Positions 3,672 through 40,620 of a stretch of 43,170 nt of DNA are shown one piece after another. The stretch is taken from positions 11,660,273 through 11,703,442 of the forward strand of contig NC_057752.1 in the NCBI RefSeq assembly GCF_004010195.1, given 5' to 3'. Source of the DNA: Chiloscyllium plagiosum. Its lineage: Eukaryota. The notes under the pieces were generated by a model, which was not told the DNA's origin, made no database searches, and was given only the letters and a program-made list of their open reading frames with translations. A program made the position numbers and the translations under genes. Position 1 is the first letter of the stretch, and every line of letters starts with the position of its first letter.

Positions 3672-4145
3672 CAATGTCAAGTGGTACTGCAGCAGTAACG
3701 ATGCATATTATACAGATCCCATATGGAGAGGATTCAAAAGGCTGGAAAAGATCTTAACACCAATGCTCCCATTTGCTGTTAATCCTGTTGATCAACACTC
3801 TGACAGTGCGGCACATTTTAGTGGCCAGTGGGGCCCGTAAGAGACTGAGGGATCAGAGCAAGGGGCAGAATCATTGTGACCCAGAGATGGAGAGTAGAAG
3901 AAAGTCTATTATCTTACTCTTTTTGATATCCAGTAGTTCATCCTTCTTATTTTCACCCTTTAGATCCATTATTTGATTAATATTCTGAACATATATACAT
4001 ATTGCATATATGCTCCGGGATATAAACTGCTGCAAGAAAACGCACTTATTTATGCAACAACATTGTCCAGGTTCAGAGAAAAGTTCACAAACGCGTTGAT
4101 ATTTCCTTTTAAGCAAACTATTAAATGTAAGCATCAATAAAACAA
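3672..4145 (+). pseudogene. Second, more diverged GPR139-like GPCR remnant (ECL2 to C-terminus only, frameshifted)
   Basis: Overlapping ORFs NVKWYCSSNDAYYTDPIWRGF..ILTPMLPFA and NTLTVRHILVASGARKRLRDQSKGQNHCDPEMESRRKSIILLF align with the intact receptor. A decayed LRDINCC (TM7) follows. The 5' half is replaced by CR1 debris. Confidence 0.85.
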
Positions 4146-4369
4146 ATGGTAATGCCACAACATGTGAAGGGGAATTGACAACAGTGATTGCTGGATGAAT
4201 GGAGGAAAAGATTGTTTCTGTCGGAGCAAATCTATCTAATATTAGCGATGATGAAAAGGGTACTCAGAGCATTAATACAAGGGTATCATTAAACAGCACA
4301 TTTAAGTCACACCAGATATGACTGCATCAAGAACAATGGATGAACATGAATAAATGGGGAATGATCAGT

Positions 4370-5210
4370 GTCACACAGTGTCCTCTGGAGCAAGAAAGGA
4401 GACAGAATTCTGACCCCTGTCCGTCTGGGACTTGACATCCCGTACCCTGACAGGGTGTTCCACAATCTGAGCTGTCTGACGGAAATCCTCCCGGTGACCT
4501 TTCGAACAGCACAGAGGTGTTACCTGTGGATTGATGCTGCACATTCTCCACTGCTACACCTCTGCCCACTGCCCGGTCATGCTTTGGCGAGACGTTTTTC
4601 CCTCCTTGGGCTGAGATTCCCATCGGAGGGTAATCTACAAAGGGGTCCTCCCGTCTTACCCCGGGGATCTGTTGTGGAGAGTGCTGCCTACAGTAGGCTG
4701 AGGGAGTTCACCGGGTGTCAGGCCACACACACGTTCTATGGCCTGGAGGAGACTGTTTTCCATGTGTATGTCCGGTATGTCCTCTTGTTCAGTTTTTGAA
4801 GGGACTGCTGTTAAAATGTTGTTTACATTTCAGTCCCACCTTCCTGATCTACTGACACTGGGTGTGGGGATGGGCGGCCAAGTCTCCAGACCTTCTCATG
4901 TCTCTGCTCCTTTGGCCTGGCCAAGATGGCCATTAACAGGTCCAGGCAGCAGGTCGAGGAGGGGCTTGTCGTTCCTGACTGTCCGCACCTCTTTCACGGG
5001 TACATCTGCCCTCGGGTGTCCCTGGAGAGGGGGCACGTGGTCATCACCAGCATGGTCGAGGCCTTTCGAGACTGGTGGGCACTGCGGGAGCTGGAGTGCA
5101 TCAACCAGCCTGGAAAATTATATTGCCGTTTCGTTGGTTTCTGTTCCAATGAATTTTTTTTTCCCATTTTCATTTTGGACTTTCTGAAAGAAACAAGGGA
5201 TTCATTTTAA
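4370..5210 (+). mobile_element. Tx1-like (L1 clade) non-LTR retrotransposon 3' end, degraded
   Basis: Zinc-knuckle remnant TFYGLEETVFHVYV and C-terminal AINRSRQ..RVSLERGHVV..EAFRDWW..LECI resemble the Tx1-type ORF2 C-terminus. Confidence 0.65.
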
Positions 5211-5569
5211 CATTTGTTGTCCCAGTCCAAAGTGAATTTGATGTGGATGGGCCAAGGGGATTTGACTTTTAGTTTACTCTGAGTTCTAATGAGTTGAGTG
5301 ACTCTATTTTAACCCCTTGTTGCACCTACTCAAGATGTTTGGAGGGGACGTAGTGGAGGGAAAGTCGTATTTTATTTTCAGAGTCTTAGGAACTTTATTT
5401 TGAGTTCAAAAGAGACGAGGGACCTTTGAGCTCCAAAGAGTCAAGGATACTTCACTTTTCTGTTTACCAAGAGGAGAGAGAGTTTGCTCTGTATTTAACC
5501 CAGTGCTGTCCCGATCCCAGGAGTGTTTGATGGGGGCAATGTTGAGGGGAATTAACTTTTGACTTTTGA

Positions 5570-7442
5570 ATTGCCCCTGCAATTTCCTGCCTTGAAATCT
5601 ACCCCCACCCCCGACCCATCCCCCACAGCAGCCTGGGATTCAATTCATCTGGGTCAGGGAATTTGTCTGTTTGGAAACTCGACAGAGATTCCAATCCCTC
5701 CCTATTTCCTATGTCAAACTGTGCAAGTTCCTCACAGTCTCTTTTCTTGAATTCCATTACTGTGTTCACCTTTTCCAGAATGAAGACTGAACGGAAGTAT
5801 TCATTCAACACCCTTCCAATATCCTGTGGCTTCACACACAAGCTGTCCCTTTGGTCCCCAATGGGGCCTAATCATTCCCTGGTTAGCCTAATCCTTTTAA
5901 TGTATTTATAAAATATCTTAGGATGCTCCCAAATCTTGTTCGCAGCTCATTTCTTATGCCCCCTTTTTGTGTTCTAATCGCTTTTTTAAATTCCCTCTTG
6001 CCTTCACTGTGTTCTCCGAAAGCCACATCTGAATTGCTCCCTTTGGACTTCCTGAAAGCCTTTCTTTTCTTCCTCATCCAGTCCTGAATTGTCCAAGACA
6101 TCCAGGGTTTCCTGAACTTTCTGCTACTCTATCTCCCGTAATCTCCCATCTCCTTTCTGAATGCCCGCACTACTACACTATAGACATATCTACAAGGAGC
6201 TCTTCCCAGTCAACATTGGCCATATTCTGCTTTATTTCAATAAAGTCTGCCTTCCCCCAATCCAAAGCCATCTTTCTCCATGTCCATAATAAATTTGAAC
6301 AGTACCGTGTTGTGGCCGCTATCGCTGAAATGATCCCCCACTGCCACATCGAACACTTGCATGGCTTTTTTCCCCAGAACCAGACCCAGCATTGCACAGT
6401 CCCTTGTTGGGCCTTCTACATATTGATACGAAACATCTCCCCTGAATGCGTTTCAAGAAATCTGTCCCATGTAAACCCTTAACTCGATGAGTATTCCAAT
6501 TTCTGTTGGGAATGTTGAAATCCCAATTACTTGATTATTATTATTGTTATTATTATTATTATTACACAAATCTGTGAACCATCTACATGTGTAATTCTCT
6601 ATTTCCCACTGACACTTGTGACTCAATGACTCCCTGAGTCTAAAACCCTCCCTCTTGCATGAATTCTTGAGCCATCTGTCCAATTTTCCTATTTCAATGG
6701 TGTCTAGTATGTGGCACCGGTAATAATCCAGAGATTACAACCATTGAGGTCCTGCTTTTTAATCTCCTGCCTAGCTCTCTGAATTCTTGATGCAAGATGT
6801 CATTCCTCCCTTTGCACATATCATCGGGACCAATATGCTGCCCGCCCTCTAAACCATCATCCACTCTATTCAGGATGCCCTGCAGCTATTCAGTGATGGT
6901 CCCTGACCCTGGCACTAGGGAGGCAACACACCATCCTTGAGTCACATGTTTGGGTGCAGATATCTGCTCTCCTGACTAAATAATCCCCTATCACTAATCC
7001 TCTTCCTTTATTCCTACCCTTGTACAGTCAAGTCGCTTGTGGTGCCAGAAGCTTGGCTCTGACTGCATTCCTCTGAGGTACCAGCACCCACATCAGCTTC
7101 CAAAGTGGAATACCGGTTAGTGAGTGGGAACCCAGGGGACTCCTGCACTACCTGCCTGTGATTTCTGGACTGTATGGTGGTCACTCATTCCCTTCTTCCC
7201 TCTAGACCCTTGAGCTGCAGTGTGACCACCTCTCTAAATGTGCTGTCCATGTCACTCTCAGCCTTGTGGATGTGCCACAGTGTCTCCAACTGCTGCTCCA
7301 GCTCCGAGACCCAGAGCTCCAGCTTCTGCAGCTGGGAACACCTCCTGCACATGTGGTCATCTCGGACACTGACAGGGTCCAGCACTCCCCACATGTGGCA
7401 AGCTGCACATTCCACTGACCTCTCTGAACATGTCTTAAACAT
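5570..7442 (-). mobile_element. Old CR1 LINE 5' portion: ORF1 (zinc finger/leucine zipper, esterase remnant) and ORF2 endonuclease/linker
   Basis: ORF 7185-7442(-) has CAAC..MW..C..C followed by heptads LELWVSELEQQLETL, as in the CR1 ORF1 N-terminus. Downstream reverse-strand pieces LNEYFRSVF and DKFPDPDELNPRLL are ORF2. Confidence 0.75.
6535..6564. repeat. (ATT)n microsatellite
   Basis: attattattattgttattattattattatt. Confidence 0.9.
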
Positions 7443-7709
7443 TCACAAATTAACACCTTTCTGCTCTGGCTCTCTGTAAATTAAGTTCCCACAATTTTGA
7501 AGCTTCATGGGTTTGAACCTTATACAGTCTTTGTTTCATTCGGTACACTTAGCTTTATTAACTGCATTAATTCTTACCAGACAGCAGATTTCCTACTCCT
7601 CTATCACTAAGGTTATGAAATTATTAAGTTGGAAGTCTTCATGGTTCAACCTTTAAGTCGGATTATCATTGTATGTTTTCCTCTTATTATTACAGATTAC
7701 AAACACTGG

Positions 7710-7995
7710 AGAACAGGTAGGAGTGACTGTCCTTGACATCAAGGAAACAGTTGGCAATTTGTAGGAAAAGAGCCACCACAAACCTGGAGTCAATGTGAAT
7801 CAGGGGGCAATCCCTCCTCAGGAGCCTGATGGAATACATTGGAATATGGCTGTAGTCGTTTAGGGATGGGTAACTCAGCTCCAGGACATCTCTGCAGGAT
7901 TTCCTCACTGTTGTGACCCAGACCCAACTAGTTTGCACTGCATCCACCACAATATCAAAGGAAGGGAAGTTCACTGATTGCTTCACAATGTTCAG
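7710..7995 (+). mobile_element. Degraded RT fragment of a second CR1/L2-group LINE family
   Basis: gtccttgacatcaagg (LDIK), ctggagtcaatg and cagctccaggacatctctgcagga (QLQDISAG, preceding the VPQG position). Confidence 0.5.
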
Positions 7996-8711
7996 AAAAA
8001 CCGATGAAGAAAAACTGATGTGGGTTAGTTCTGTGAAGAGACAGAGACGTTTAGAATAGGAAAGGGAGAAAGGGTAGAGAAGAGAAGTAAGTACTTTGTG
8101 CCTGTCTTAGCAGTGAAGGACACAGGAAGTCCCTCTGAAAGAAGTAGGGTTGAAAGATCCAGTGAAAGTTTGGAACTGAATGAAATTCGATATTGCAGGG
8201 AGTTGCATTGGAGAAATTAATAAGGCTGAAAGTTAATGCATTGAGGGGACCCGTTGGTATTAGTCTGAGAATGTTGAAAGAAATTTTGATAAAAATAGTG
8301 GATGCATTGATTATCACAATTCAAAATGACATTAATATCTCAGTGCGGGCCGCTGTTTGGGATTTTAACAAAGCAACACCATTGTTTAATAAAGTAGGCT
8401 GTACAACAATATAAAATGCAAATCTGTAAACCCGACCTATGTAGCTGGGAAGGTGATGCAATTATTAGAAGGCAAGTGATGATTTGACAAGTAGAAAACG
8501 ATTCTCAGATTCAACAGATGCAGCACAGAATTGTGAAGGCAAGAGAACTGAGAGGATTTCCTGAAGATGTAACTGGCAGAGTTGATGTGATGAAGCAGTG
8601 GATGTGGTGTATTTGGATTATCAGAAGAGTTTTGATAACGTGCCTCACAGGAAACAATATGAATGTGCCCGGGATTGCTGGGATTAAGGGTAGTGTCATA
8701 GACATGATGGC

Positions 8712-11010
8712 TTGTGATGGAGCCCACAAGGGAGCAGGCTATTCTGAACTTAGTTCTATGTAATGAGCTAGACTCTATAAAAGATCTTAACGTGAGGGAA
8801 CACTTAGGAGACAGCGATCATAATATGGTTGAATTCAGTCTGCAGTTTGAAAGAGAGAAAGCAAAATCAGATGTAATGGTGTTACAGTTAAATAAAGGTA
8901 ATTACAGGGGCATGAGAGAGGGTCTGGAAGCAGAGCCTAGTGGGGAAGACAGTAGAGCAACAATGGCAGGGGTTTCTGGGTGCAATTGAGGACACAGTAC
9001 AGAGGTTCATCCCAAAGAAAAGAAAGATTATCCAGGGAGCAGTTAGACAGCCATGGCTGACAAAATAAGTCAGGAAATGTATCAAAGAAAAAGACAGAGC
9101 CTATAAAGTGGCCAAGAGCACTGGGAAATCAGAAGATTGGGAAGACTACAAAAACAAACAGAGGATAACGGAGAGAGAGATAAGGAAGGAGAGGATCAAA
9201 TATGAAGGTAAGCTAGCCAGTAATATTAGAAATGATCGTAAAAGTTTCTTTCAATACATAAGAAACAAACGAGAGGCATAAGTAGAAATTGGGCCGCTCC
9301 AAATTGATGCTGGACGATTAGTGATAGGAGATAAGGAAATAGCTGAAGAACTTAATAAGGGCTTTGTGTCAGTCTTCACAGTGGAAGACAGGAGTAATAT
9401 CCCAACAATTAAGGAGAGTCGGGGGCAGAGTTGAGTATGGTAGCCATTACAAAAGAGAAAGTACTAGAAAAGTTAAAAGGTCTAAAACTTGAGTGGCTGA
9501 GGAAATAGCGGAGGTGTTGGTTGTGATCTTTGAAAAATCACTGGAGTTAGGGAAAGTCCCAGATGATTGGAAAATCGCTGTTGTAACCCCCTTGTTCAAG
9601 AAAGGATCAAGACAAAAGATGGAAAATTATAGGCCAATTAGCCTAACCTGGGTTGTAGGTAAAATTCTAGAATCCATCATTAAGGTTGAGGTTTCCAAAT
9701 TCTTGGAAGTGCGGGTTGGATTAGAATAAGTCAACATGGATTTAATAAGGGGAGATTGTGCCTGAAAAACCTGTTAGAATTCTTTGAAGAGGTAACAAGT
9801 AGGTTAGACCACGGAAACCCAGTGGATGTGATTTATCTAGACTTCGAAAGGCCTCTGATAAGGTGCCTCACGGGAGGCTGCTGAGTAAGGTGAGGGCCCA
9901 TGGTGTTCGAGGTGAGCTACTGGTATGGATTGAGGATTGGCTGTCTGACAGAAGGCAGAGAGTTGGGATAAAAGGTTCTTTTTCAGAATGGCAGCCGGTG
10001 AAGTGGGGTCCCGCAGGGTTCAGTGTTGGGGCTGCAGCTGTTCACTTCATATGTTAATGATCTGGATGAAGGGACTGGGAGCATTCTGGTCGATGATACG
10101 AAGTTAGGCTGACAGTACTGAGGAGGTGGGGAGGCTACAGCAAGTTTTAGAGAGTTTAGGAGCGTGGTCCAAAAAATGGCGATGAAATTTAATGTGAGCA
10201 AGACCGAGGTCTTGCACTTTGGCAAAAAAGAATACAGGCATGGACTATTTCTTAAATGGTGAGAAAATTCATAAAGCCGAAGTACAAAGGGATCTGGGAG
10301 TGCTCGTCCAGGATTCTCGAAAGGTTGATTTGCAGGTTGAGTTTGATTAAGAATGCAAATGTAATTATGTCATTTATCTCAAGAGGGTTGGATTATAAAG
10401 GCAGCGATGTGCTTCTGAGACTTTATAAACCTCTAGTTAAGCCCCAGTTGGAATACGGTGTCCAATTTTGGGCCCCACACCTCAGGAAGGACATGCTGGC
10501 ACTGGAGCAGGTCCAGCAGAGATTCACACGGATGATCCCTGGAATGGTAGGCCGAACGTATGATGAACAGGTGAGGATCCTGGGATTGTATTCATTAGCA
10601 TTTAGAAGGTTGAGGGGAGATCTAATAGAAACTTACAAGATAATGCATGGCTTAGAAAGGGTGGATGCTGGGAAGCTGTTTCGGTTAGGCAGGGAGACTA
10701 GGACCCGTGGGCACAGACTTAAAATTAGAGGGGGTCAATTTAGAACGGAAATGAGGGGACATTTCTTCAGCCAGAGAGTGGTAGGCCTGTGGAATTCATT
10801 GCCACGGGGCTCAATGGAGGCCGGGACGTTAAATGTCTTTAAGGCAGAGATTAATAAATTCTTGATCTCGTAAGGAATTAAGGGTTATGGGGAGAATGTG
10901 GGTAAGTGGAATTGAAACACCCATCAGCCATGAATAAATGGCAGAGTGGACTCGATGGTCTGAAAGGGCTTGCTTCCACACCTATGTCTTATGGTCTCAT
11001 GGTCTTATGA
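8712..11010 (+). mobile_element. CR1 LINE ORF2 (endonuclease end, RT, C-terminus) with 3' tail; internally deleted and frameshifted
   Basis: EPTREQAILNLV..EHLGDSDHN, NYRPISLT, VPHGRLL, LEYGVQFWAPHL, RRLRGDLIETYKI, RTRGH, WNSLP; tail (cttatggt)n. Confidence 0.92.
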
Positions 11011-11208
11011 TGCAAACATTGCACTGGGAATCAAGATAAACTCATCCACAAGTCATCACAAACATAAAATAATAACAGACTCTCAAAGTCTCACTGGTCT
11101 CCAGCTAAGACAAAGAAACCAGATCCCAGAATAACAGTGAAAATAAAGCAGCAAGAAAACACAAACTACATTTTGTATAGGATAATTAAAATGTTGATGT
11201 CCTCACCA

Positions 11209-11575
11209 TCTCTGGAACATCATCCACTCACTGCACCCTCCCTATCTCTGCAACGTCACTCACTCGCTGCAGTCCTCCCTGTCTCTGCAACGTCACTCAC
11301 TCGCTGCAGTCCTCCCTGTCTCTGTAACATCATTCACACACTGCAGGCCTCCCTATCTCTGTAGCATCATTCACTCACTGCAATCCTCCCTATCTCTGTA
11401 ACATCATCCAATCACTTGCAGCCCTCCCTATCTCTGTAACATCATTCATTCACTACAGCCCTCCAGATCTCTGTAACATCATTCACTCACTGCAGACCTC
11501 CCTGTCTCTGTAACATCATCCAATCACTGCAGTCCTCCCTATTTCTGTAACATCATTCACTCCCTGCAGCTCTCC
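11209..11575 (+). repeat. ~37 bp minisatellite, ~10 copies
   Basis: Unit approximately tctctgtaacatcattcactcactgcagtcctcccta, repeated with variants. Confidence 0.9.
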
Positions 11576-12276
11576 TTTTTTAACCATAATGTGGAGGTTC
11601 CACCACTGAAGTATTGTTTGATCTCTATAACCCTCCCCAGATTCTGGGCTCTTTTATGTCTCTGTCACGTTCTTCTACTTTTGTGACATTCCCTTGCTCT
11701 TGAAAAGCACTGCAACTCTCCAGATCTCGGAAAACCTCTCCACACCTTCCAGCCCCAGAGGAATTGGCCATTACAATCCACATGAGTTCCCACATTCTGT
11801 TCCTATGGTTGAAATGAAAGTGGCAGAAACGGATACCTGGAGTTATCAAGTGATGATTTTGAACAGAGCCTCGAAGTTGCTTGCTCTTTCAACGTTTAAT
11901 ATAAGTAACTGACATGGATATTATCCCAAATTACCAGCTCAGGGTATGGGATTTGAAGAATAATGGGTGAATGTGGGCATTGATTTCACTTTCCTCATCT
12001 AAGTCATTCATTGATATTGTAAATAATTGTTATGGATGGACAATAAATGCTGGGCCCAGCCAGCGAGCCCCCCTCATGCCTGCCCTTGGTCCATATCCCT
12101 CCATTCCTTGCATATTCATGAGCTTATCTAAAAGTCCCTTAAACAACCCTGTCTTATCTGCCTCCACCAGCACACTTCACAGCGTGCTCCAGACTCCTCC
12201 CACTCCCTGTGTAAAACACCTATCCCTCACAACTCTTTTGAACTTTCCCCCCTCACCTTAAATGCATTCCCCCTCA

Positions 12277-13602: not shown

Positions 13603-13722
13603 GCCTACGGCCATACTAGTCTGAAAACGCCAGATCTCGTCTGATCTCGGAAGCTAAGCAGACTCAGGCCTGGTTAGTACTTGGATGGGAGACCGCCTGG
13701 GAATACCAGGTGCAGTAGGCTT
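13603..13722 (+). rRNA. RNA5S: 5S rRNA gene (solitary copy)
   Basis: GCCTACGGCCATAC...GATCTCGTCTGATCTCGGAAGCTAAGCAG...GGTTAGTACTTGGATGGGAGACCGCCTGGGAATACCAGGTGCAGTAGGCTT, 120 nt. Helix I pairs the two ends, and AGUCUG/CAGACU forms helix II. Confidence 0.97.
13652..13699 (+). promoter_or_regulatory. 5S internal control region (box A, intermediate element, box C)
   Basis: AGCTAAGCAG at +50 and TGGATGGGAGACCGCCTG at +80, the canonical positions. Confidence 0.9.
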
Positions 13723-14810: not shown

Positions 14811-16010
14811 TTTCATTCCCACTCATATCAGACATTTCAACTCTGGGAAAAAGATTCTGACTGTCAACCCTATCTATGCACCTCATATTTTTATAGACTT
14901 CGATCAAGTCTCCCTTCAGCCACTGCTGCTCCAGCGAAAACAACACGAATATTTCTAGCCTCTGCTGATGGCTCATACCAGCATCCTGGTAAACCTTGTC
15001 TGCACCCTCTCCAAAGCCTCCACATTGATTCAGTAATGTGGCCAGCAGAATTGAATGCAATACTCTAACAGTGGCCAGACCAAAGTCTTATAAACATGCA
15101 ACATGATATTCTGACCCTTGTACTCATTACAAAGGCAAGCGTGCCATAGCCTTGTTTGCCACCCTACCTACTTGTGTGGCCATTGTCAGGGAGCTATGGA
15201 CCTGGACCATAAGATCCCTCTGTACATCAATGCTGTTCAGGCTCCTCCCATTAACTGTATACGTTTCCTTAACATTTGATCTCCGAAAGAGCAGCATCTC
15301 ACAGTGACCTGGATTCAACTCCATCTGCCATTTCTCCACCCATATCTGCAACTGCTCTCTCTGCCGCTGTATCCTTTGACAACCTTCAACACTATGCATA
15401 ACTTCATCAATCTTCACAATCACCTGATGAAGGAGCGTCGCTCCAAAAGCTAGTGTGCTTCCAATTAAACCTGTTGGACTATAACCTGGTGTTGTGTGAT
15501 TTTTAACTTTGTACACCCCAGTCCAACACCGGCATCTCCAATTCATCAATCTTTGTAATGTCTGCAAACTTACAAACGCCCTCATCTACATTTTCATCCA
15601 AGTCATTTATATATATCACAAACAGCAGAGGTCTCAGTCTGGATCCCTGTGGAACATCACTAGCCACGGATCTCCACCCTGAAAAACATCCTTCCACCAT
15701 TACCCTCTGTCTTCTATGGGCAAGCCAATTCTGAATCCACTCAGCCAGGTTACCATGGATCCCATGCATCTTAAACTTCTGGATGAGCCGACCTTGAGGG
15801 ACCTTATCAAAAACCTTACTAATGATGTAAACAGGATCCACAGCTCCACGCTCATTGATCACCTTTGTCACCTCCTCAAAAAATTCACTCCATATAGTAA
15901 GACATTACCTGCCCTACACAAAGTTATGCTGACTGTCCCTAATTATGCCATGCTATTCCAAATGCATGTAAATTCTATCCCTAAGAATTCTATCCAATTG
16001 CTTCCCAAAT
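14811..16010 (-). mobile_element. CR1 LINE RT/C-terminal fragment interrupted by a Penelope-derived insertion
   Basis: Reverse ORFs FDKVPQGRLI..WIQNWL..VPQGS..YINDLDE..KFAD, WQMELNP, LKGDLIEVYK. Confidence 0.85.
15415..15541 (+). mobile_element. Short Penelope-like (pLTR) insertion with 12 bp target-site duplication and a decayed hammerhead motif
   Basis: Flanked by ttcatcaatctt at 15403-15414 and 15542-15553. Same sequence as 32881-33005 and 39825-40035. Confidence 0.8.
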
Positions 16011-27610: not shown

Positions 27611-28049
27611 TTGAATAAAAACATTTCTGCTTGGCTCAGTTAGTCCTAAATTGTAGCCCCCTGATTTTAAAATTGCATTCCTGCTGCTTCATCTGGGCTT
27701 TTCTCCATCTCCTGTCTGATCATTGGGTAGGGGAGCTGATCCTCGGTGACTTGAATTATCTGGAAGGATATTCAGTCTAAACCTGGGGTATGGAGAATAA
27801 ATGGTTCACCTGTGTCTGGGAGTGAATGAATACTCAATCTCTGTGCTTAACCCTGTCAATCCAGGAATGGGTGATTTCATTGGAAAAGGGTTGGGTGAAG
27901 ATTGCAATTTGTTTTCAATTATTATGGTCTCACCACAAGCCAACAAACAAGTTTCAGATTGCAACATTCTATCCATCCAGTTTGAACTAAGCACTAAAAA
28001 TGACTGACCAGTAACTTCCAGCTCCTTAACCCTTTTCTCTTTGTTGCAG

Positions 28050-28963
28050 TTAACTTACTAGGAATTCTAATCCTGTCTCGTGGAAAGTGTGGTCTCTCTT
28101 CATGTACTACTCAATACCTTGTGGCCATGGCAACTGCAGATCTCCTGGTCATCATCACCTCCGTAATCTTGTGGCGAATCAGTTATTATTATTTCCCAGG
28201 ATCATTCTTGGACATCACCCCTTTGTGTAGTATTAACTCTGCCCTGGTGTCTGCAGCAACAGATTGTTCTGTTTGGTTCACTGTCACATTTTCCTCTGAT
28301 CGATTTGTGGCAATTTGTTGCCAGAAGCTGAAAGTAAAATACTGCACTGGGAAAAATGCAGCCATGGTCCTAGCAGCAACATCCATCCTGTTCTGCTTTA
28401 AAAATGTCCCCTGGTACTTTACATATGAAAGTCTGGTGATAATCGACAATGTGCCATGGTTCTGTGCTGCAAAGGCCAGCTATTATAGTGATCCTGGATG
28501 GGTTGGTTTTGATTGGTTGGTTACAGTTTTAACCCCTTTCCTCCCATTTGCTTTAATTGTGTTGCTCAACGCTCTGACGGTCAGACACATTCTGGTGGCC
28601 AGTCGAGTCCGTAAGAGACTGCGGGGTCAGAGCAAGGGAGAGAGTCACAGTGACCCAGAGATGGAGAGCCGAAGGAAATCCATGATTTTACTTTTCACGA
28701 TATCAGGCAGCTTCATCCTCCTCTGGTCTGTGCATGTCATAGAATTCTTATATTATACCATTTTAGGAATTGATCCCCAGAGGGATTACAAATATTCCGA
28801 ATATGTCTTTAAACAAGTTGGATGGATGATGCGAGATTTAAGTTGCTGCACAAACACATTTATTTATGGGGTGACTCAGTCGAAGTTCAGAGAGCAGGTC
28901 AAGAGTGTTGTGAAATATCCAGTTGTGTTAATTTTTCATTTTATCAATAAAAAAAACAGGTGA
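28050..28963 (+). CDS. Orphan GPR139/GPR142-like class A GPCR, coding exon 2 (whole protein 326 aa)
   Basis: Acceptor ttgttgcag|TT; open frame to TGA at 28963. TM2 YLVAMATADLL, TM3 C..SVWFTVTFSSDRFVAIC, TM5 PFLPF..N, ICL3 DPEMESRRKS, TM7 NTFIY, helix 8 SKFREQV. Confidence 0.92.
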
Positions 28964-29191: not shown

Positions 29192-31929
29192 ATGAGAAGC
29201 ATAAACAGGCTAAACATCAAAGGCATTTTTACTGGCCTGGACTACACAAAGATGTTGTTGAATTTTGCCAGACGTGTCATACATGTCAGCTAATCAGAAA
29301 ACCATAGTCAGTAATAAAACCTGCACCTTTAATGCCTATTCCAACATTTGAGGAACCTTTCATAAGTCTTGATTGATTGCGTAGGTCCCCTACCTCAAAC
29401 AAAAAGTGGGAATAAGTATTTATTAACAATAATGGATTTGTCAAATCGATTTCCAGAGGCAATCGCATTGCGCAACATCACAGCAAAATTATGTACATTT
29501 GTTACTAGACACAGACTACCAATAGAAATCCAGTCAGATCAATGATCAAACTTCGCATTCAAACTATTCAAGGAGGTTATGGATAACTTGGAAATAAAGC
29601 AATTCAAATCTACTGCGTACCATCTGGAATTGCAGAGACCACTAGAGAAATGGCATCAAACACTAAAGACCATGTTGAGGCCATGTTTTGGGTGGCATGG
29701 TGGCACAGTGGTTAGCACTGCTGCCTCACAGTGCCAGAAACCCAGGTTCAATTCCCGCCTCAGGCAACTGTCTGTGTGGAGTTTGCATATTCTCCCCGTG
29801 TCTGCGTGGGTTTCCTCCGGGTGCTCTGGTTTCCTCCCACAGTCCAAAAAAAAAATGTGCAGGTTAGGTGAATTGGCTATGCTAAATTACCCGTAGTGTT
29901 AGGTGTAGGGGAATGGGCGGGTTGGTGTGGACTTGTTGTGCCGAAGGGCCTGTTTCCACACTGTAAGTAATCTAATCTTATGGTCAGGATTATCCAAATG
30001 ATTGGGCTAAGGGAGTTCTATTTGTACCTTTTATGATCAGAGATGCACCAAATGAATCGACAAAATTCAGTCCATTCGAATTGATGTTTGGGCATAAAGT
30101 AAGAGGACCATTAAAATTGATTAAGCAAAAATTAGTAAGTTAGAATTCAGAGACCACCCATTTGGACAATGTGTCAAATTTTAGAGAACGATTAAATAAA
30201 ACAGGAAGTGGATAAGAAATCACAAATTCTCAATTTTGGGGATAAGGTATTGGTGTTATTTCCAGTGACAGGTGAGCCTTTAAGAGCACGGTTTAGGGGA
30301 TCTTATCAAATCGAGAGGAAATTGAAGGAAGTGAATTATTTGATAAGGACTCCAGACAGGAAGAAATCTCACACAGTGTGTCATATGAATATGCTCAAAA
30401 TGTATTTTGACAGGGAAGGAAAGCAAGAGGAGAAGCTGTTACTGGTTACAACACAGCGGGAAGAACCATGTTCAGAGGATTCTGAATTGGACATTCCTCA
30501 AATTAAATTGAACAATAAGGAAGTTGTCAAAAAGTGGGATAAACTATTGACTTACCTTCCACAAGAAAATCGAAATGACCTGAAAGAGTTATTACTATCA
30601 CATGGGGAGATATGTGGAAATAAACTTGGAAGTACTAACCTAATTGTGCAAGATCTAGAGATAAGAAATGCTGTTCCGATTAAGCAACATCCTGATAGGC
30701 ACAACCCTCTAAGTTGGCACAGGTTCAGAAGGAGGTAGAGCGCATGCTCCAAGATGGCATAATCGAAGTGAGTTACAATGACTGGAGCTCACCCATAGTC
30801 ACGGTGCCAAAGCCAGATGGTACCCAACGGTTACGTGTGGACCATCACAAAGTCAACACTGTTACAAAGACTGATGTATATCCAATTCCACAGTTGGAGG
30901 ACTGTGTCGAAAAAGTGGGACAAGCAACTTACATTTCTAAGTTGGAGTTGCTCAGAGGCTACTGGCAAGTACCTCTGTCAGAGAGCGCAAAGGAAATTTC
31001 AGCTTTCGTAACACCAAATGGGCTATATCAGTTCAAAGTCATGCCATTTGGTATGAAAAATGCTCCAGCCACATTTCAGAGACTGGCTAATAAGATCATT
31101 GCTGGGTTACCCAACTGTGTAGTGTATATTGATGACCTGGTGATTTTTAGTCACTCATGGAAAGAACATTGATAGCATTTATCGGACTTGTCTGATTGAC
31201 TTCAGAAGACAGGCTTGGTGGTAAACCGAGTTAAAAGTGAATTTGCCAAAGCCCCAAGTCACCTTCCTGGGCCATGTTATTGGGATGGACAAATGGCCCC
31301 ACGAGATGCAAAAATGAAAGTAATTAGAGAATTTTCCACACTTTCAATGAAAAAAGCCGTCCTACATGCCTGGGGTTGAATTGATTTTACCGAAGGTTTA
31401 TGCCAAACTTTAGCATGTCGCTGCGCCACTCACTGAATTGTCAAAAAAGGGCAAGAAGTTTCAGTGGACAGCAGACTGACAAAAGGCATTTGACAGCCTA
31501 AACACTGCGTTAACCACTGCCCCAGTATTAGCCACACCAGATTACACGAAGCCTTTCAAGGTGGCTATTGATGCCAGTGACGTGGGTGTCAGTGCGGTGC
31601 TCCTGCAGGAGGATGACGAGGGGATAGAAAGACCCATCAGGTATTTTTCCAGTAAGTTGAATGCTCATCACCAGAAATACTCAACGGTGGAGAAAGAGAC
31701 TTTAAGCTTGGTGTTGGCATTACAACATTTCAGTGTTTATATTACCAGCAATGCATCTGAGACAATCGTATACACTGATCATATCCCATTGACATTTGTA
31801 GAAAAACTTAAGGACAAAAATGCCAGACTGTTTAGATGGAACTTGTTGCTGCAGTCATTCAATTTGACAATTGTGCATGTGGCAGGTCGTGAAAACGTGA
31901 CTGCTGATGCATTATCAAGATTCGAATGA
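29192..31929 (+). mobile_element. Gypsy LTR retrotransposon pol remnant with Gmr1-type order (integrase, then RT, then RNase H), 5'-truncated
   Basis: Integrase zinc finger HFYWPGLHKDV..CQTCHTCQ, core STAYH.. and SH3-like GDKVLVL..NYLI (30208). Then RT WSSPIV.VPKPDG..GYWQVP..MPFGMKNAPATFQR..YIDD and RNase H DASDVG..YSTVEKE..YTDH..ADALSR. Many stops and frameshifts. Confidence 0.92.
29690..29978 (+). mobile_element. HE1/V-SINE-type SINE nested in the Gypsy integrase
   Basis: Box A tggcacagtgg, box B ggttcaattcc, (aatct)n tail. Confidence 0.88.
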
Positions 31930-32029: not shown

Positions 32030-32695
32030 AATAAACCGCACTCAGTTCCAGTTAGTCTGATTTGGTACAGAGATGAAAAGGATTTTGCGAGGTCATTTGC
32101 TTATTTGTATACAGATGAGACTTCAGGCCAAAGTGGACATGTTTTAGAAGTGACCTGTAGAATGAAAGGGGAGTGGTCAGCTCTCTAGCTGAGCAGTTTA
32201 GTTCAGTCCAAATCTGGTTGGGAGTTCAACAGTGAGCTGTGTGGAAACTCTGTCTTCTGTCCTTCTAACTTTAACCTGTACTGTGTTTTAAAAGGGGTTT
32301 GCTTATTAGGACTGTTGTGTATATTCAGAACAGCAGTTTGGATAGACTGAGTTCTGTAAGGGTTCTTTATACTGTTTTTCGTGTTTCATTGTATAATTTT
32401 GAGAGTAAGGTTTTTGTCTGCTTTAAAACCTGGTAGTCAACGTCGCTACATTACTCTGGGTAATTTTCACTGTACACTTACTGAAACAAATTGCAAAGTT
32501 ATTGTCTGGGCTGCCTGCTTAAGAATGTTTTGAGTGGCCTGGCCTAGTCCATGGAGGCGCGGTAGTAGTTTGGCGAAACCAGCAGACAAGGGAGGCGCGG
32601 TAGTAGTTTGGCGCACTTACTGAAACAAATTGCAAAGTTATTGTCTGGGCTGCCTGCTTAAGAATGTTTTGAGTGGCCTGGCCTAGTCCATAACA
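32030..32695 (+). mobile_element. Probable 3' LTR of the Gypsy element (5' edge uncertain)
   Basis: Non-coding segment after the RNase H stop, ending in ccataACA; resembles 17499-18105 locally. Confidence 0.55.
32475..32691 (+). repeat. Perfect 78 bp direct repeats flanking a 61 bp CpG-rich insert that contains two perfect 23 bp repeats
   Basis: 32475-32552 = 32614-32691. ggaggcgcggtagtagtttggcg at 32553-32575 and 32591-32613, separated by 15 nt. Confidence 0.95.
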
Positions 32696-33005
32696 GTTCA
32701 CTTGAGTATATAACTTGAAAAAAAAAGTTCTGGGGTTTACATATGAAAGAACTGAAACCAACATGGTCATTCTAAAACATGAGTGACTTAACAAAATCTA
32801 GGTCTTCTTCAATATATAATTTCAGTTGCATCACACTGTAAACTTTTGTTATAAATTCTGTGTCTTACAATCTTATTCTCCACAACCACCTGATGAAGGA
32901 GCAGTGCTCCGAAAGCTAGTGTTTCCAAATAAACCTGTTGGACTATCACCAGGCGTTGTGTGATTTTTAACTTTGTCCACCCCAGTCCAACACTAGCACC
33001 TCCAA
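32696..33005 (+). mobile_element. Penelope-like element terminal repeat (pLTR) fragment
   Basis: The 3' part matches the TSD-flanked insertion at 15415-15541; contains the hammerhead core and AATAAA at 32928. Confidence 0.7.
32887..32921 (+). ncRNA. Minimal type I hammerhead ribozyme motif (intact core)
   Basis: CAC-CUGAUGA-A-GGAGC(AGU)GCUCC-GAAA-GCUA/GUG: both core boxes, 5 bp helix II, palindromic AGCU helix III, CAC/GUG helix I. Predicted cleavage after A32918. Confidence 0.65.
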
Positions 33006-33039
33006 ATGCTGTTTCCTCCTGCAGTCTCACTCCTGACCA

Positions 33040-33540
33040 GACGGTGGCGATGTTTGCTGCTTCTTTGCCCATATCTTGTCTCAGTGAATTGCTATTGAAG
33101 ATGGCGGTGCGGAAGAAGGACGGAGGCCCGAATGTGAAATATTTCGAGGCCTCAGATACGGTGTCGCAGTTTGATAATGTGCGCCTGTGGCTGGGGAAGA
33201 ACTATAAAAAGGTAAGAGATGCGAATGGATTGCGTCAGAGAGGGTGAGGTTATCGATGTTTATGGGGCCCTGGACCGGACCCTGATGGCGGGAGGCGGCT
33301 AGAAGTTCGGCTTTCCCTGTCCTTGACATCGGCCTCGGAGCTTCCTGTTGGGTTGCCCAGCCGACGGTATGAAGTCCCCTGCTGCGGAACGGAGAAACTT
33401 CGGAAGCAGAGGGCAGGCGTTTCCGTTCCTCACTTCATGCTCGGAAGCTGTGGATCAATTCTGCTTCCCAGGTCCCCACTTAAAATCGTCATTTCAAACA
33501 AAATCTGCCCCGTTTGAAACCTTTCCCTCTCGAAAAATTC
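33040..33540. promoter_or_regulatory. CpG-enriched region over SMARCC2 exon 1 and intron 1, with YY1-like AAGATGGCGG and ETS-like CGGAAG motifs
   Basis: Visibly higher CpG density than the flanks; cggaag at ~33401 and ~33442. Confidence 0.5.
33101..33211 (+). CDS. SMARCC2: SWI/SNF subunit SMARCC2 (BAF170), first coding exon
   Basis: [37 protein letters not shown] matches the vertebrate SMARCC2 N-terminus. Strong Kozak AAGATGG; phase-0 donor AAG|GTAAGA after 111 nt. Confidence 0.93.
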
Positions 33541-33894
33541 AAACCCCTTTCCAAACCAACTTCGCCTTCAATCCAGAAGGTTTATTTAAAACAACCAATC
33601 ACCTTTTTTAAAAAAAAAATCCACTGAAAAACCCCTTCCCTGAAAACGCCCCTCCTCTTAAAAAACCTTTTATCCCCATAAGCCCAACATCCCCCCTCCC
33701 TGTACACCCTCTCTTCTCTTTCCCGACCCCTGTAAACTCTCTTTACACCCACTATCCCCTGTAATTCCCCTCCCTCCATAAACCCACAATTCCCCTTTTC
33801 TGCCATAAGCCCACCTCATTTTCCCCTTCCCATACCCCACCACCTCCATCACCTTCTGTCCTACCTGTGACAGACAACTTAGTGAGGGTGAGGT

Positions 33895-35489: not shown

Positions 35490-35978
35490 ATCATAGAATC
35501 CCTACGGTGTGGAAACAGGCCATTTGGCCCAATAAGTCCAAACCAACCCTCCGAAGAGTAACCCAGCCAGACCCAATCCCCTACCCTATTATTCTACATT
35601 TACACTTGAACAATGCACCTAACTGACACATCCATGGACACTGGACAACTTAGCATGGCCAATCCACCCTAACCTGCACATCCCTGGACACTATGGGACA
35701 ATTTAACATGGCCAATCCACCCTAACCTGCACATCCCTGGGCACTATGGGACAATTTAGCTGTCCAATCCACCCTAACCTGCACATCCCTGGGCACTTTG
35801 GGCAATTTAGCACGGCCAGTCCACCCTAACCTGCACATCTTTGGATTGTGGGAGAGAACCGGAGGAAACCCCGCAGACACGGGGAGAATGTGCTAACTTC
35901 ACACAGACAGTCACCCAAGGCTGGAATCGAACCCAGCTCCCTGGTGCTGAGGCAGCAGTGCTAACCACTGAGCCGCCC
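35490..35978 (-). mobile_element. HE1/V-SINE-type SINE with an internal ~52 bp tandem expansion (~4 copies, 35625-35840)
   Basis: Reverse box A/B at 35920-35975; repeated ccaatccaccctaacctgcacatccctggacactatgggacaatttag. Confidence 0.88.
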
Positions 35979-38219: not shown

Positions 38220-38790
38220 GCGATATATACCGACTGCGATGAAATGTTGACTGGGCGACTGCATTGCGGAATACTTGCGTTCTGTCCACAAAAATGTCCC
38301 TGAGCTTCCACTTCAACACCCCACTGTGTTCCCTGGCCAACATCTCCGTCTCAGACTTGCTGCGGTGCTCAAGTGATGCTCAGTGCAAACTGCAAGAAAG
38401 CACCTCATTTTCCATATGGGAACCCTGCAGCCTTTGGGACTTGATATCAAGTTCAATAATTTTACGGCCTGAACACATCCTCTCCCATGTCCTTACTCCA
38501 ACCCCTGCACACCAGGCCTTGTCATCACCTGGGCTGCTACCACAACAACCCATTGTCACCTACTAATGGTCCCCATAAGCAGCTATTGATTTTCTCAGAG
38601 CTACCTTTATCCATTCCTTTGTCCAACTGTCGTTTTCTCTCTAGGCTTCATCTCTACCAATTATTTACTCCTTACCCTCACCCGTCCCATCCTGAAGAAA
38701 GGTCACTGGACTCAAATCGTTAATTCTGCTTTCTTTCCACAGATGTTGCTAGACCTGCTGGTTTTTTTCCCAGTGGTTTCTGGCTTATTA
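38220..38790 (+). mobile_element. Penelope-like element GIY-YIG endonuclease remnant and 3' end
   Basis: HFNTPLCSLANISVSDLLRCSSDAQCKL..HLIF..GTLQP.GL.IKFNNF-like translation; terminal ctgaagaaaggtcactggactc motif. Confidence 0.75.
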
Positions 38791-40620
38791 AAATAAGCCA
38801 CAATTTAAACTTTTATTTCTGGTCCATCTTTGTTCCTATGCATAATTACCTTGAACTTATCGAATTATGGTCAGTATCACCGAGTGTTTCCTACTGCCAT
38901 ATCGACCACTTGCTTCTTGTCTCCAAAAATGATCTCCCCCCCCCCCCCCCCCACGCCCGTGGGACTTTGTATATGTTGACTTATAAACCTCATATTCCAT
39001 ATATTATGTTTCCTCTTTTTTAAAGTTTTTTTTGTGGTCTTCCTTTGCATGATGCCAAAATCCTCCTAGTTCTCAGGTATATCGTTTAACAACGTTGTGG
39101 GCCTTTTCCTTTGGTCTAATACAATTCTTGACTCCTTTTACTAGCAGCAGTCGGAACACTTTTGGTTGCTGAGTTTTTGTGCATAAGGGATTGTTTTTTG
39201 TTGTAATCTCTGTTTTAGTTCATTAAACCTTTGCTGTTGCTTGTCTACTGTCATATCTTTTAATGTAATTTCCCAATTCACCAAGTCCAATTTGCTCCTT
39301 ATAGCTTTATAATTTTTGTTTAGATTAGATACCCTACAGTGTTCTTTGTTGATTTAAGGCCCTAATTTGTAATGGAACTATGTCACTTTCACACTTCACA
39401 GAAAATACTGTTTATATTATGGTTACTCTTTCTTCAAGACACCTTTACAACAATATTATGAATTTAGCCTTTTTCATTGCACAATGCTAGCTCTAAAATG
39501 GGCTGTTTCCTAGTTGGTTCCTCAGTATACTGCTCCAGAAAACCATCTCCCTTACACTCGAATAATTCATACTCCACTCATTAGTGTGAATTAGACTTAC
39601 CCAATTTATATGCATATTGAAATCTCCCATGATTTGGTGTTCTCCTTGTTACACATATAATTTTCTAATTTATACTGTGGATTACGTGATCACTGGTGTT
39701 TGCTGACCTATAAACAACACCCACCACAGATGTCTGCCCCCTGTTGTTTCTTAGTTCCTTTCAAACTGATCCTATTTCGTAAACTTTAAAAGTAAGGTCA
39801 TCTCTGACTTTGGTACTAATGATGAGCAGATGCCGGTGTTGGACTGAGGAGTACAAAGTTAAAAATCACACAACTCCAGGTTATAGTCCAACAGGTTTAA
39901 TTGGAAGCACTAGCTTTTGGAGCACTGCTCCTTCATCAGGTGACTAGCTACCAGACGAAGGAACAGCACTCCAAAAGCTAGTACTTCCAAATAAACCTGT
40001 TGGACTATAACTTGGTGTTGTGAAATTTTTAACTATTAATGTTATGTTTAACTAACAGCACCACTGCCACCACCTTTCTCCCAGCCTCCCGTCCTTCCTG
40101 AGTATGATGTACGTTTTCCCCAACAGTTTGTCAGCCACACATTCATCTCTGTAAGATTATTTATCCACTACCCATTTGCATGTGGCTCTGGTAATAACCT
40201 GGAAGTTCTGCTTTTAATTTAGTACCTATGCTGCATACCACCACCCCAGCCCCCCAAAAAAGCGGATATTCCGTAATTGGCACTAGCCAGACAACACCAC
40301 AGCTCTCTGGATTCTACTTCTCTCCCAGCTTATCTGGAAAGAAAGCAGAGTTAATGTTTCCGATACAGTGACCCTTCATCAGGACTTCTCAATCCCTTTC
40401 CCTGCTTGACTTGTAGTCATACCCTTCTGTCCTTAGCACTGACCAAATCAGATGACAGCCTTCTGGGACAGAGTGTTTTGGTAACTTTGTTGTTATCTGA
40501 TGCCGACAGCTCAGTCTCCAGCTCTAAAGCTTTGAGCTCAAGCTCCTCAAGCTACAGACACTTCCTGCAGTTGCGATTGCAGTAGTATTCATGAGTTCCT
40601 GTATGCTGCAGCCATGACAC
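38790..40620 (-). mobile_element. Old degraded CR1 5' portion (ORF1 remnant and endonuclease)
   Basis: The reverse strand resembles the CR1 endonuclease (ttgaaatctcccatgat = MGDFN on the minus strand); zinc finger/zipper remnant near 40510-40610. Confidence 0.55.
39825..40035. mobile_element. Inverted (head-to-head) pair of Penelope pLTR fragments
   Basis: 39825-39942 is the reverse complement of the 15415-type repeat; 39950-40035 is a forward copy. Confidence 0.8.

What the first reader, a model, noticed from the sequence alone, without database searches (positions are those of the whole stretch)
32887..32933. Core-intact hammerhead ribozyme motif ~180 nt upstream of the SMARCC2 start codon, on the sense strand
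Seen: CAC-CUGAUGA-A-GGAGC(AGU)GCUCC-GAAA-GCUA/GUG followed by AAUAAA. All three sibling copies (15421, 39908 minus, 39950) carry CCGAAA>CCAAAA, a CpG-decay change that destroys the GAAA box, so only the SMARCC2-proximal copy keeps it. Established: Penelope-like elements carry minimal type I hammerheads whose palindromic helix III favours cleavage as dimers. Inference: the motif could cut 5'-extended SMARCC2 transcripts or stop read-through from the upstream LTR/GPCR. Its CpG may instead have survived only because the promoter region is unmethylated or the copy is young.
Basis: partly seen in the sequence, partly recalled or inferred. Interest (0 to 1): 0.75.

Follow-up and report, generated by a model that had tools for sequence, protein, structure and literature searches.

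The report
Penelope hammerhead stub upstream of SMARCC2
The self-cutting-RNA (hammerhead) motif in front of the SMARCC2 gene is real, but it is one of about 15,000 equally intact copies left in this genome by a Penelope-type jumping gene, and it likely lies just upstream of where the gene's message starts, so it is probably an idle passenger and not a control switch.

Summary
The motif is at 32887-32921 as described, and the three sibling copies in the window carry the CpA change. It lies in a 311-bp 3' fragment (32697-33007) of an abundant Penelope-like retroelement whose longer copies carry RT and GIY-YIG-type frames. An intact core is the majority state: 14,834 of 21,619 pattern matches keep the CpG and 1,220 copies match this 32-mer exactly. 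A non-catalytic CpG in the same element survives about as often (64% against 69%). This copy has lost the other two family CpGs examined, so it was not shielded. About 10 intact sense copies would lie within 250 nt of a start codon by chance. Contigs from three probable RNA runs stop in a 41-bp tandem unit downstream of the element, a weak hint that SMARCC2 transcripts start after the motif. Published metazoan minimal hammerheads did not cut without a partner copy or the element's protein. Cross-species conservation and cleavage were not tested. The scan has reported this family and this reading many times on other DNA. Verdict: ordinary, new member of a known kind.

The parts
32697..33007 (+). 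5'-truncated 3' end (3' UTR part, pseudo-LTR and tail) of a Penelope-like retroelement
   Evidence: Matches family loci over about 290-312 nt at 74-90%; 80% over 312 nt to the pLTR behind the RT/endonuclease frame of L071
32850..32855 (+). TATAAA of the pseudo-LTR, about 30 nt before a predicted element start near 32882 (promoter role inferred)
   Evidence: 23 of 87 hammerhead-covering alignments begin at 32870-32899; lead from earlier notes e1-8639351 and e1-8022686
32887..32889 (+). Helix I 5' strand (pairs with 32919-32921)
32890..32897 (+). CUGAUGA box plus the extra nucleotide between A9 and G10.1 typical of PLE minimal hammerheads
   Evidence: feature described in PMC4209133
32898..32910 (+). 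Helix II (5 bp, 3-nt loop); the loop CpG of the family is decayed in this copy
32911..32918 (+). GAAA box, 4-nt palindrome (32914-32917) in place of helix III, predicted cleavage after A32918
   Evidence: cut site inferred from hammerhead numbering
32919..32921 (+). Helix I 3' strand
32928..32933 (+). Poly(A) hexamer, a family feature (AATAAA or ATTAAA in 67 of 75 matches scored)
   Evidence: A-tailed reads of paralogous copies end at the equivalent of 32935-32946
32971..33007 (+). Optional tail of about 37 nt: family 3' ends fall at 32970-79 (34 of 87) or 33000-07 (39 of 87)
   Evidence: PLE 30-40 bp tail described in PMC8557442 and PMC11167929
33010..33050 (+). 41-bp unit, single in this assembly, tandem in read data; likely holds the SMARCC2 transcription start
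   Evidence: 'Goes back 41' joint in runs X1 and X2; 71-nt contigs in X4, X5, X6
33101..33211 (+). SMARCC2 first coding exon
   Evidence: contigs of X2 and X5 leave the window at 33211
15411..15541 (+). Sibling copy, GAAA box changed to AAAA
39828..39942 (-). Sibling copy, GAAA box changed to AAAA; one arm of an inverted pair
39950..40034 (+). Sibling copy, both boxes damaged; other arm of the inverted pair
32100..32552 (+). LTR-type repeat behind a broken Gypsy-like pol region (29546-31929), upstream of the PLE fragment
   Evidence: 39 other copies at 80-85%, most ending at the equivalent of 32552; RVT_1, RT_RNaseH and integrase C-terminal hits

Best explanation
The motif is the minimal type I hammerhead of a Penelope-like retroelement's terminal repeat, carried in a 311-bp truncated copy next to SMARCC2, where it is likely an idle passenger that kept its GAAA box by chance and likely lies upstream of the main transcription start. 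Shown: the family, its size, the element's RT and endonuclease-type frames, the majority state of the intact core, and the decay of this copy's other family CpGs. Inferred: in the parent element the motif would cut the element's own RNA only with a second copy (pairing through the 4-nt palindrome) or with help from the element's protein. This copy has no second intact copy of the family in the window, so even a read-through RNA would likely pass it uncut.
For: Exact-pattern counts in the own genome: CpG 14,834, CpA 3,018, TpG 3,767; 1,220 copies identical over 32 nt, backwards control 0. In loci not chosen on the hammerhead (L027-L068), 30 of 48 copies keep the CpG; in L027-L071, 29 of 53 keep the core boxes and 19 of 53 the whole fold. 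Control CpG in the tail: 8,460 of 13,252 intact. This copy has lost 2 of the 3 family CpGs examined. 13 of 47 long unselected copies have as few rare letters in the 35-mer as this one. About 10 intact sense copies expected within 250 nt of a start codon, assuming 20,000 genes and random placement. Element context: hammerheads lie about 510-915 nt behind the endonuclease C-terminal motif; homologs carry PF00078, PF26215, PF28514 and often PF01541. In X4, X5 and X6 (three studies) depth at 33016-33021 is wholly the 71-nt repeat contig, with no contig reaching into the element. PMC4209133: a single min-HHR showed no detectable cleavage. PMC11167929: the anole PLE hammerhead did not cut without the protein, and no RNA-seq reads began or ended at its site.
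Against: All three siblings carry CpA, a state seen in 14-19% of copies (two probably share one event). Against an unselected sample the copy has 1 rare letter in 35 inside the motif and 39 in 276 outside (Fisher p 0.063); this is confounded by subfamily differences, and against 14 same-hexamer copies only 4 private changes in 130 columns remain, all outside the motif. The transcription-start evidence is contigs only, from runs whose RNA status is a guess; two of the three are from another organism in which the insertion may be absent. The junction contig in run X15 has 30 letters on the element side, one short of the tool's bridging rule. Minor 5'-extended transcripts would be dropped by contigs. 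No cleavage assay or cross-species test was done.
Confidence: 0.87

Rival explanations
1. The insertion affects SMARCC2 as a side effect, through its poly(A) signal or its TATA-type promoter and not through the ribozyme: the hexamer would end read-through from the upstream LTR, or the pseudo-LTR would start a minor longer SMARCC2 transcript with two upstream ORFs.
For: The hexamer is AATAAA or ATTAAA in 67 of 75 matches. 543 of 1,043 laid reads of run X19, in the three rows shown, run into A-tails behind 32935-32946, so paralogous copies are polyadenylated there. TATAAA at 32850 and the 5'-end cluster at 32870-32899 are present, sense to SMARCC2; upstream ATGs at 32893 (8 codons) and 33006 (30 codons) stop before the main ATG.
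Against: The tailed reads come from other copies (425 of 701 read C at 32922) and may be few molecules from few host genes. No contig joins this copy to the SMARCC2 5' region in three probable RNA runs. The upstream LTR is 15-20% diverged from its relatives, and nothing shows that it is transcribed.
Confidence: 0.08
2. One reading: the hammerhead has been co-opted to cut 5'-extended SMARCC2 transcripts or read-through RNA, pairing in trans with the many other family RNAs or helped by the element's protein, and selection keeps its core.
For: Sense orientation and closeness; whole fold intact; no private change inside the 35-mer against 4 in the other 95 columns. Family RNA is plentiful as a possible partner. 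Domesticated hammerheads exist in Clec2 3' UTRs and in amniote introns (PMC6155905, section 7).
Against: An intact core is the majority state. The chance of no private change in 35 nt at the rate seen outside is about 0.2 (my arithmetic). Helix I is only 3 bp and is lost in the longer fold. A monomer min-HHR was inactive in vitro. One search shows no pile-up of read ends at the cut site, although a poly(A) single-cell library has little power for this.
Confidence: 0.03
3. The core CpG survived because the copy lies in the unmethylated SMARCC2 CpG island.
For: A CpG-rich stretch begins right after the element (o/e 0.8-0.9 in 33001-33750), and the copy has gained one CpG at 32954-55.
Against: CpG o/e is 0.23 in 32751-33000. 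The loop CpG is TpG and the tail CpG, 15 nt from the island's edge, is changed at both letters. No extra cause is needed at 62-69% survival.
Confidence: 0.1

Closest known systems
Minimal hammerheads (min-HHR) in pLTRs of metazoan Penelope-like elements (Cervera and De la Pena 2014, PMC4209133; parts 1-2 of 4 read, two supplementary files searched, file 1 not searchable)
   Same: Type I, both catalytic boxes, extra nucleotide between 9 and 10.1, G10.1-C11.1 pair, palindrome at 15.2-16.2 instead of helix III, thousands of dispersed single copies from truncated elements, opposite-strand pairs close together.
   Different: Helix I is 3 bp and helix II 5 bp here (4-5 and 7-8 bp in the Schistosoma families). 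The copy number, at least 21,619 for one family, exceeds the 4,000-9,000 reported for coelacanth and Xenopus. No shark term was found in the two supplementary files searched.
PAc hammerhead of the anole Poseidon element (PMC11167929; passages read)
   Same: Hammerhead in the pLTR of an endonuclease-bearing PLE; two 3' ends that define a 30-40 nt tail.
   Different: PAc is Poseidon clade and its ORF starts inside stem II. Here the ATG inside the core opens only 8 codons, and the RT-EN linker has a cysteine motif that points to Neptune (no tree made).
Domesticated hammerheads: Clec2 3' UTR, RECK/CTCL/DTNB introns (PMC6155905, section 7 read)
   Same: A retroelement-type hammerhead on the sense strand of a host gene region.
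   Different: Those are described as conserved across mammals or amniotes. This one is a minimal core inside a recognisable high-copy repeat, with no evidence of conservation or of being in the transcript.
Non-LTR retrozymes (bioRxiv 10.64898/2026.07.22.740005; part 1 of 5 and passages read)
   Same: Type I hammerhead in short non-coding PLE-related DNA; reported in the one chondrichthyan sampled.
   Different: Retrozymes are defined there as tandem repeats with at least two hammerhead units; this copy is single.

Membership tests
PLE minimal hammerhead (min-HHR) | CUGANGA and GAAA boxes, UH cleavage site, type I order | tested here: met
PLE minimal hammerhead (min-HHR) | Extra nucleotide between A9 and G10.1; G10.1-C11.1 pair; palindromic 15.2-16.2 | tested here: met
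   A32897; G32898-C32910; palindrome 32914-32917 against PMC4209133
PLE minimal hammerhead (min-HHR) | Located in the terminal repeat of a PLE | tested here: met
   80% match over 312 nt to the repeat behind the ORF of L071; hammerheads 510-915 nt behind the ORF end in many loci
PLE minimal hammerhead (min-HHR) | Self-cleavage as dimer or with protein help | not testable with these tools
   No assay possible; one search shows no pile-up of ends but has little power
Endonuclease-bearing Penelope-like element (parent family) | Single ORF with RT followed by GIY-YIG endonuclease | tested here: met
   L070 RVT_1 E 2.8e-6, 27.6 bits, just under the cut-off of 29.6. Own fragments gave no GIY-YIG Pfam hit, but the 120 listed of 182 homologs mostly carry PF00078/PF26215/PF28514 and many PF01541 (that PF01541 is GIY-YIG is recalled). 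42% identity to P0009 through the endonuclease start. No fully intact ORF among the 3 loci fetched
Endonuclease-bearing Penelope-like element (parent family) | 5' truncation, inverted partial copies, optional 30-40 bp tail | tested here: met
   against PMC8557442 passages
Neptune clade | [quoted passage not shown] | tested here: inconclusive
   A cysteine motif lies in the linker of L070 and L071; Nematis shares the trait; no tree was built
Domesticated (host-exapted) hammerhead | Core conserved beyond what sibling copies show | tested here: not met
Domesticated (host-exapted) hammerhead | Lies within the host transcript | tested here: inconclusive
   Contigs of X4, X5, X6 do not join the element to the 5' region; a weak hint against
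Domesticated (host-exapted) hammerhead | Orthologous site conserved across species | not testable with these tools
   No related genomes are held (header); no DNA run of organism C was listed
Non-LTR retrozyme | Tandem array of at least two hammerhead-bearing units | tested here: not met
   Single copy; no tandem repeat in 32400-33400

The most novel reading that the evidence does not exclude
The Penelope fragment is a ready-made module at the 5' edge of an essential chromatin-remodeller gene: a sense TATA start, a hammerhead in the first 40 nt of any RNA it starts, and a working poly(A) signal. It insulates SMARCC2 from LTR read-through or yields a minor upstream isoform that is decapped by trans-dimer or PLE-protein-assisted cleavage, which would tie SMARCC2 output to retroelement activity and would be a domesticated minimal hammerhead in a 5' region.
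Probability: 0.04. Interest if true: 0.7.

Novelty: new member of a known kind. Interest (0 to 1): 0.1.

Why it matters
As it stands it matters little: it shows how a local contrast (1 intact copy of 4) vanishes against the genome-wide background. Two side results have some use. The family's hexamer appears to be a working poly(A) signal at other copies. The GAAA-destroying CpA change is under-represented at the core CpG (CpA/TpG 0.80 against 1.18 at a control CpG), which may reflect selection on the ribozyme in source elements. If the novel case were true, a minimal retroelement ribozyme would be controlling a SWI/SNF core subunit. Full-text searches found no paper holding both SMARCC2 and hammerhead ribozyme, and none of the 4 listed for shark, Penelope and hammerhead appears by title or abstract start to describe this family.

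Tried and rejected
Rfam scan of the window: no hammerhead family among 7 matches up to E 10. Pfam on 4 plus 3 element fragments: only a sub-threshold RVT_1 hit and a weak COG5_N hit; no GIY-YIG. The longest 'open frame' (1,372 aa, L069) was an N-gap artefact. Tandem Repeats Finder found nothing in 32400-33400. No RNA holder was listed on record. Run X19 (poly(A) single-cell, about 2 in 100 read) had almost no cover of SMARCC2 exon 1, so it says nothing on the start site. I considered a spliced intron from 32919 to about 32986 in the element's leader; no such joint was among the 15 shown of 19, so I dropped it. I considered that the 71-nt contigs come from a related array 3 Mb away; its units are 83-89% identical, while the X4 contig has 0 differences over 46 nt, so this was rejected for X4 and is unlikely for X5 and X6 (2 differences). 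The X15 contig with 4 differences probably is that array. The raw inside/outside conservation test (p 0.063) was set aside as confounded by subfamily. The look-up of earlier findings by sequence and by nearby place gave nothing.

Full report
Observation. The 35-mer folds into this shape (z -1.68; 14 of 200 shuffles as good), but helix I is lost in 111- and 126-nt context. Rfam gave no hammerhead. The exon at 33101-33211 is SMARCC2 exon 1. The three siblings carry CCAAAA; two of them form one inverted pair 8 nt apart.

What the motif belongs to. The motif lies in a repeat fragment at 32697-33007 that matches family loci at 74-90%. Following the family upstream leads through a 500-900 nt 3' region to the end of an endonuclease-type frame and an RT. 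In L071 the frame and the hammerhead-bearing repeat lie on one strand, and the window fragment matches that repeat at 80% over 312 nt. Of 182 homologs, the best are 72-75% identical shark proteins, and most of the 120 listed carry RT and PLE-type Pfam accessions, many also PF01541. My own fragments gave only a sub-threshold RVT_1 hit and no endonuclease hit, and none of the 3 long loci fetched had an intact ORF. Variable 5' truncation, inverted partial copies and two 3' ends 37 nt apart (34 and 39 of 87 alignments) match the PLE insertion pattern in PMC8557442 and PMC11167929 (passages). A cysteine motif in the linker points to Neptune, not tested by a tree. The host is inferred to be a shark from these homologs.

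Is the intact core special? No. Exact patterns with a free loop give 14,834 copies with the CpG, 3,767 with TpG (GAAA kept) and 3,018 with CpA, so 68.6% are intact. 1,220 copies are identical to this one over 32 nt. Exact patterns favour young copies, so I also scored copies from loci found by 3' UTR or protein queries: 30 of 48 keep the CpG (that script's label says L027-L056, but it covered L027-L068), and 29 of 53 keep the boxes and 19 of 53 the whole fold. A control CpG in the tail, outside the ribozyme, is intact in 8,460 of 13,252 matches, 63.8%. This copy has lost the loop CpG and both letters of the tail CpG, and gained one CpG; CpG o/e over 32751-33000 is 0.23. So neither selection nor island protection is needed. 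One result leans the other way: 1 rare letter in 35 inside the motif against 39 in 276 outside (p 0.063). Most outside differences are subfamily traits. Against 14 same-hexamer copies, about half of them chosen on the hammerhead, only 4 private changes in 130 columns remain, and 13 of 47 unselected long copies are as clean inside the motif. With 14,834 intact copies in 3.56 Gb, about 10 would fall on the sense strand within 250 nt of a start codon if there are 20,000 genes and placement is random.

Is it transcribed with SMARCC2? Only weak evidence was within reach. No holder is on record as RNA. Runs X1 and X2 show a joint that goes back 41 nt from 33050 to 33010. X4, X5 and X6 each hold a 71-nt contig over 33007/33010-33055 and an exon-1 contig that starts at 33026. 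A length of 41 plus 30 is what an unbroken cycle of a 41-bp tandem unit gives at word length 31, and an entry from upstream would split that cycle (my inference). In these three runs, from three studies, depth at 33016-33021 equals the depth of that contig alone (39.7, 215.2, 67.8). In X15, which behaves like DNA, a 62-nt contig runs from 32978 to 33039, with 30 letters on the element side, one short of the tool's bridging rule. The likely reading is that SMARCC2 transcripts start inside a 41-bp array that the assembly shows once, downstream of the element. Contigs drop rare forms, RNA status is a guess, and X5 and X6 are from another organism where the insertion may be missing.

Would it cut? 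PMC4209133 (parts 1-2 read) reports no detectable cleavage for a single Schistosoma min-HHR and low cleavage for dimers and trimers. PMC11167929 reports that the anole PLE hammerhead cut only with the element's protein, was not needed for insertion in vitro, and left no read ends in RNA-seq. This copy has no intact family partner in the window. In X19, family reads from other copies cover both sides of the site (568 at 32899, 706 at 32918 on one mate direction), with no pile-up of ends. 543 of 1,043 laid reads, in the three rows shown, run into A-tails behind 32935-32946. So the hexamer appears to work as a poly(A) signal at paralogs, in RNAs that still carry the hammerhead region. If the insertion stops read-through at all, the poly(A) signal is the likelier means.

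Surroundings. Upstream lie a 7tm receptor frame (28004-28963), a broken Gypsy-like pol region and an LTR-type repeat 15-20% diverged from its relatives. The PLE fragment keeps TATAAA at 32850, and 23 of 87 family alignments begin at 32870-32899, in line with earlier unchecked notes that the element's RNA starts just before the hammerhead. A sense promoter is therefore present in form, with two upstream ORFs before the SMARCC2 ATG; no read evidence shows that it is used.

Family-level aside. CpA/TpG is 0.80 at the core CpG and 1.18 at the control CpG. This may reflect selection for GAAA in source elements, or sequence context and subfamily structure; copies are not independent, so the small p value is not to be trusted.

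Verdict. This is a new member of a known kind, interest 0.1. The scan has noted this family many times (770 findings hold the search words), including similar gene-proximal copies with the same conclusion; these notes are unchecked and are not counted as support. Paper searches; papers not named as read were seen as listings only. Supplementary file 1 of PMC4209133 and the preprint's supplements were not seen and may list shark motifs. Left open: cross-species presence, the true start site and cleavage.

Noticed in passing
window 33010-33050; G000:C43:14660000-14660331 (-), L073-L079: A 41-bp unit in the SMARCC2 5' region is single in the assembly but tandem in runs X1, X2, X4, X5, X6. A CpG-decayed array of about 8 related units (83-89%) lies 3 Mb away on the same contig. 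It may be a variable minisatellite in the 5' UTR, and it holds a strong-looking splice acceptor at 33022-24.
   Followed up: partly
window 32553-32613: A 61-nt insert that reads as the DKG motif region of a Penelope-type RT, with a 23-nt partial tandem, flanked by a 100% identical 78-bp duplication of the LTR end (32475-32552 and 32614-32691). Probably a very recent mini-insertion with a long target duplication, or an assembly artefact.
   Followed up: partly
family-wide, window equivalent 32928-32946: The hexamer is AATAAA or ATTAAA in 67 of 75 matches, and A-tailed reads of other copies end about 12 nt later: the family likely supplies poly(A) sites to host transcripts.
   Followed up: partly
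family-wide, window equivalent 32910-32911: The GAAA-destroying CpA change is rarer than the GAAA-keeping TpG change (3,018 against 3,767), the reverse of a control CpG (2,597 against 2,195).
   Followed up: partly
window 40357-40382 (-) and 38690-38753 (+): Copies of a second hammerhead-bearing repeat; the minus-strand copy keeps both boxes but helix II is degraded.
   Followed up: no
window 33050-33100: An in-frame upstream ATG at 33050 would add 17 residues to SMARCC2.
   Followed up: no
window 28004-28963 and about 2300-2650: An intronless 7tm_1 receptor frame with a 90% identical partial duplicate about 26 kb upstream, inside a larger segmental duplication.
   Followed up: no
window 13603-13721: A single full-length 5S rRNA copy, 105.9 bits.
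   Followed up: no
window 11199-11612 and 35643-35852: A 37-bp and a 52/53-bp tandem array.
   Followed up: no
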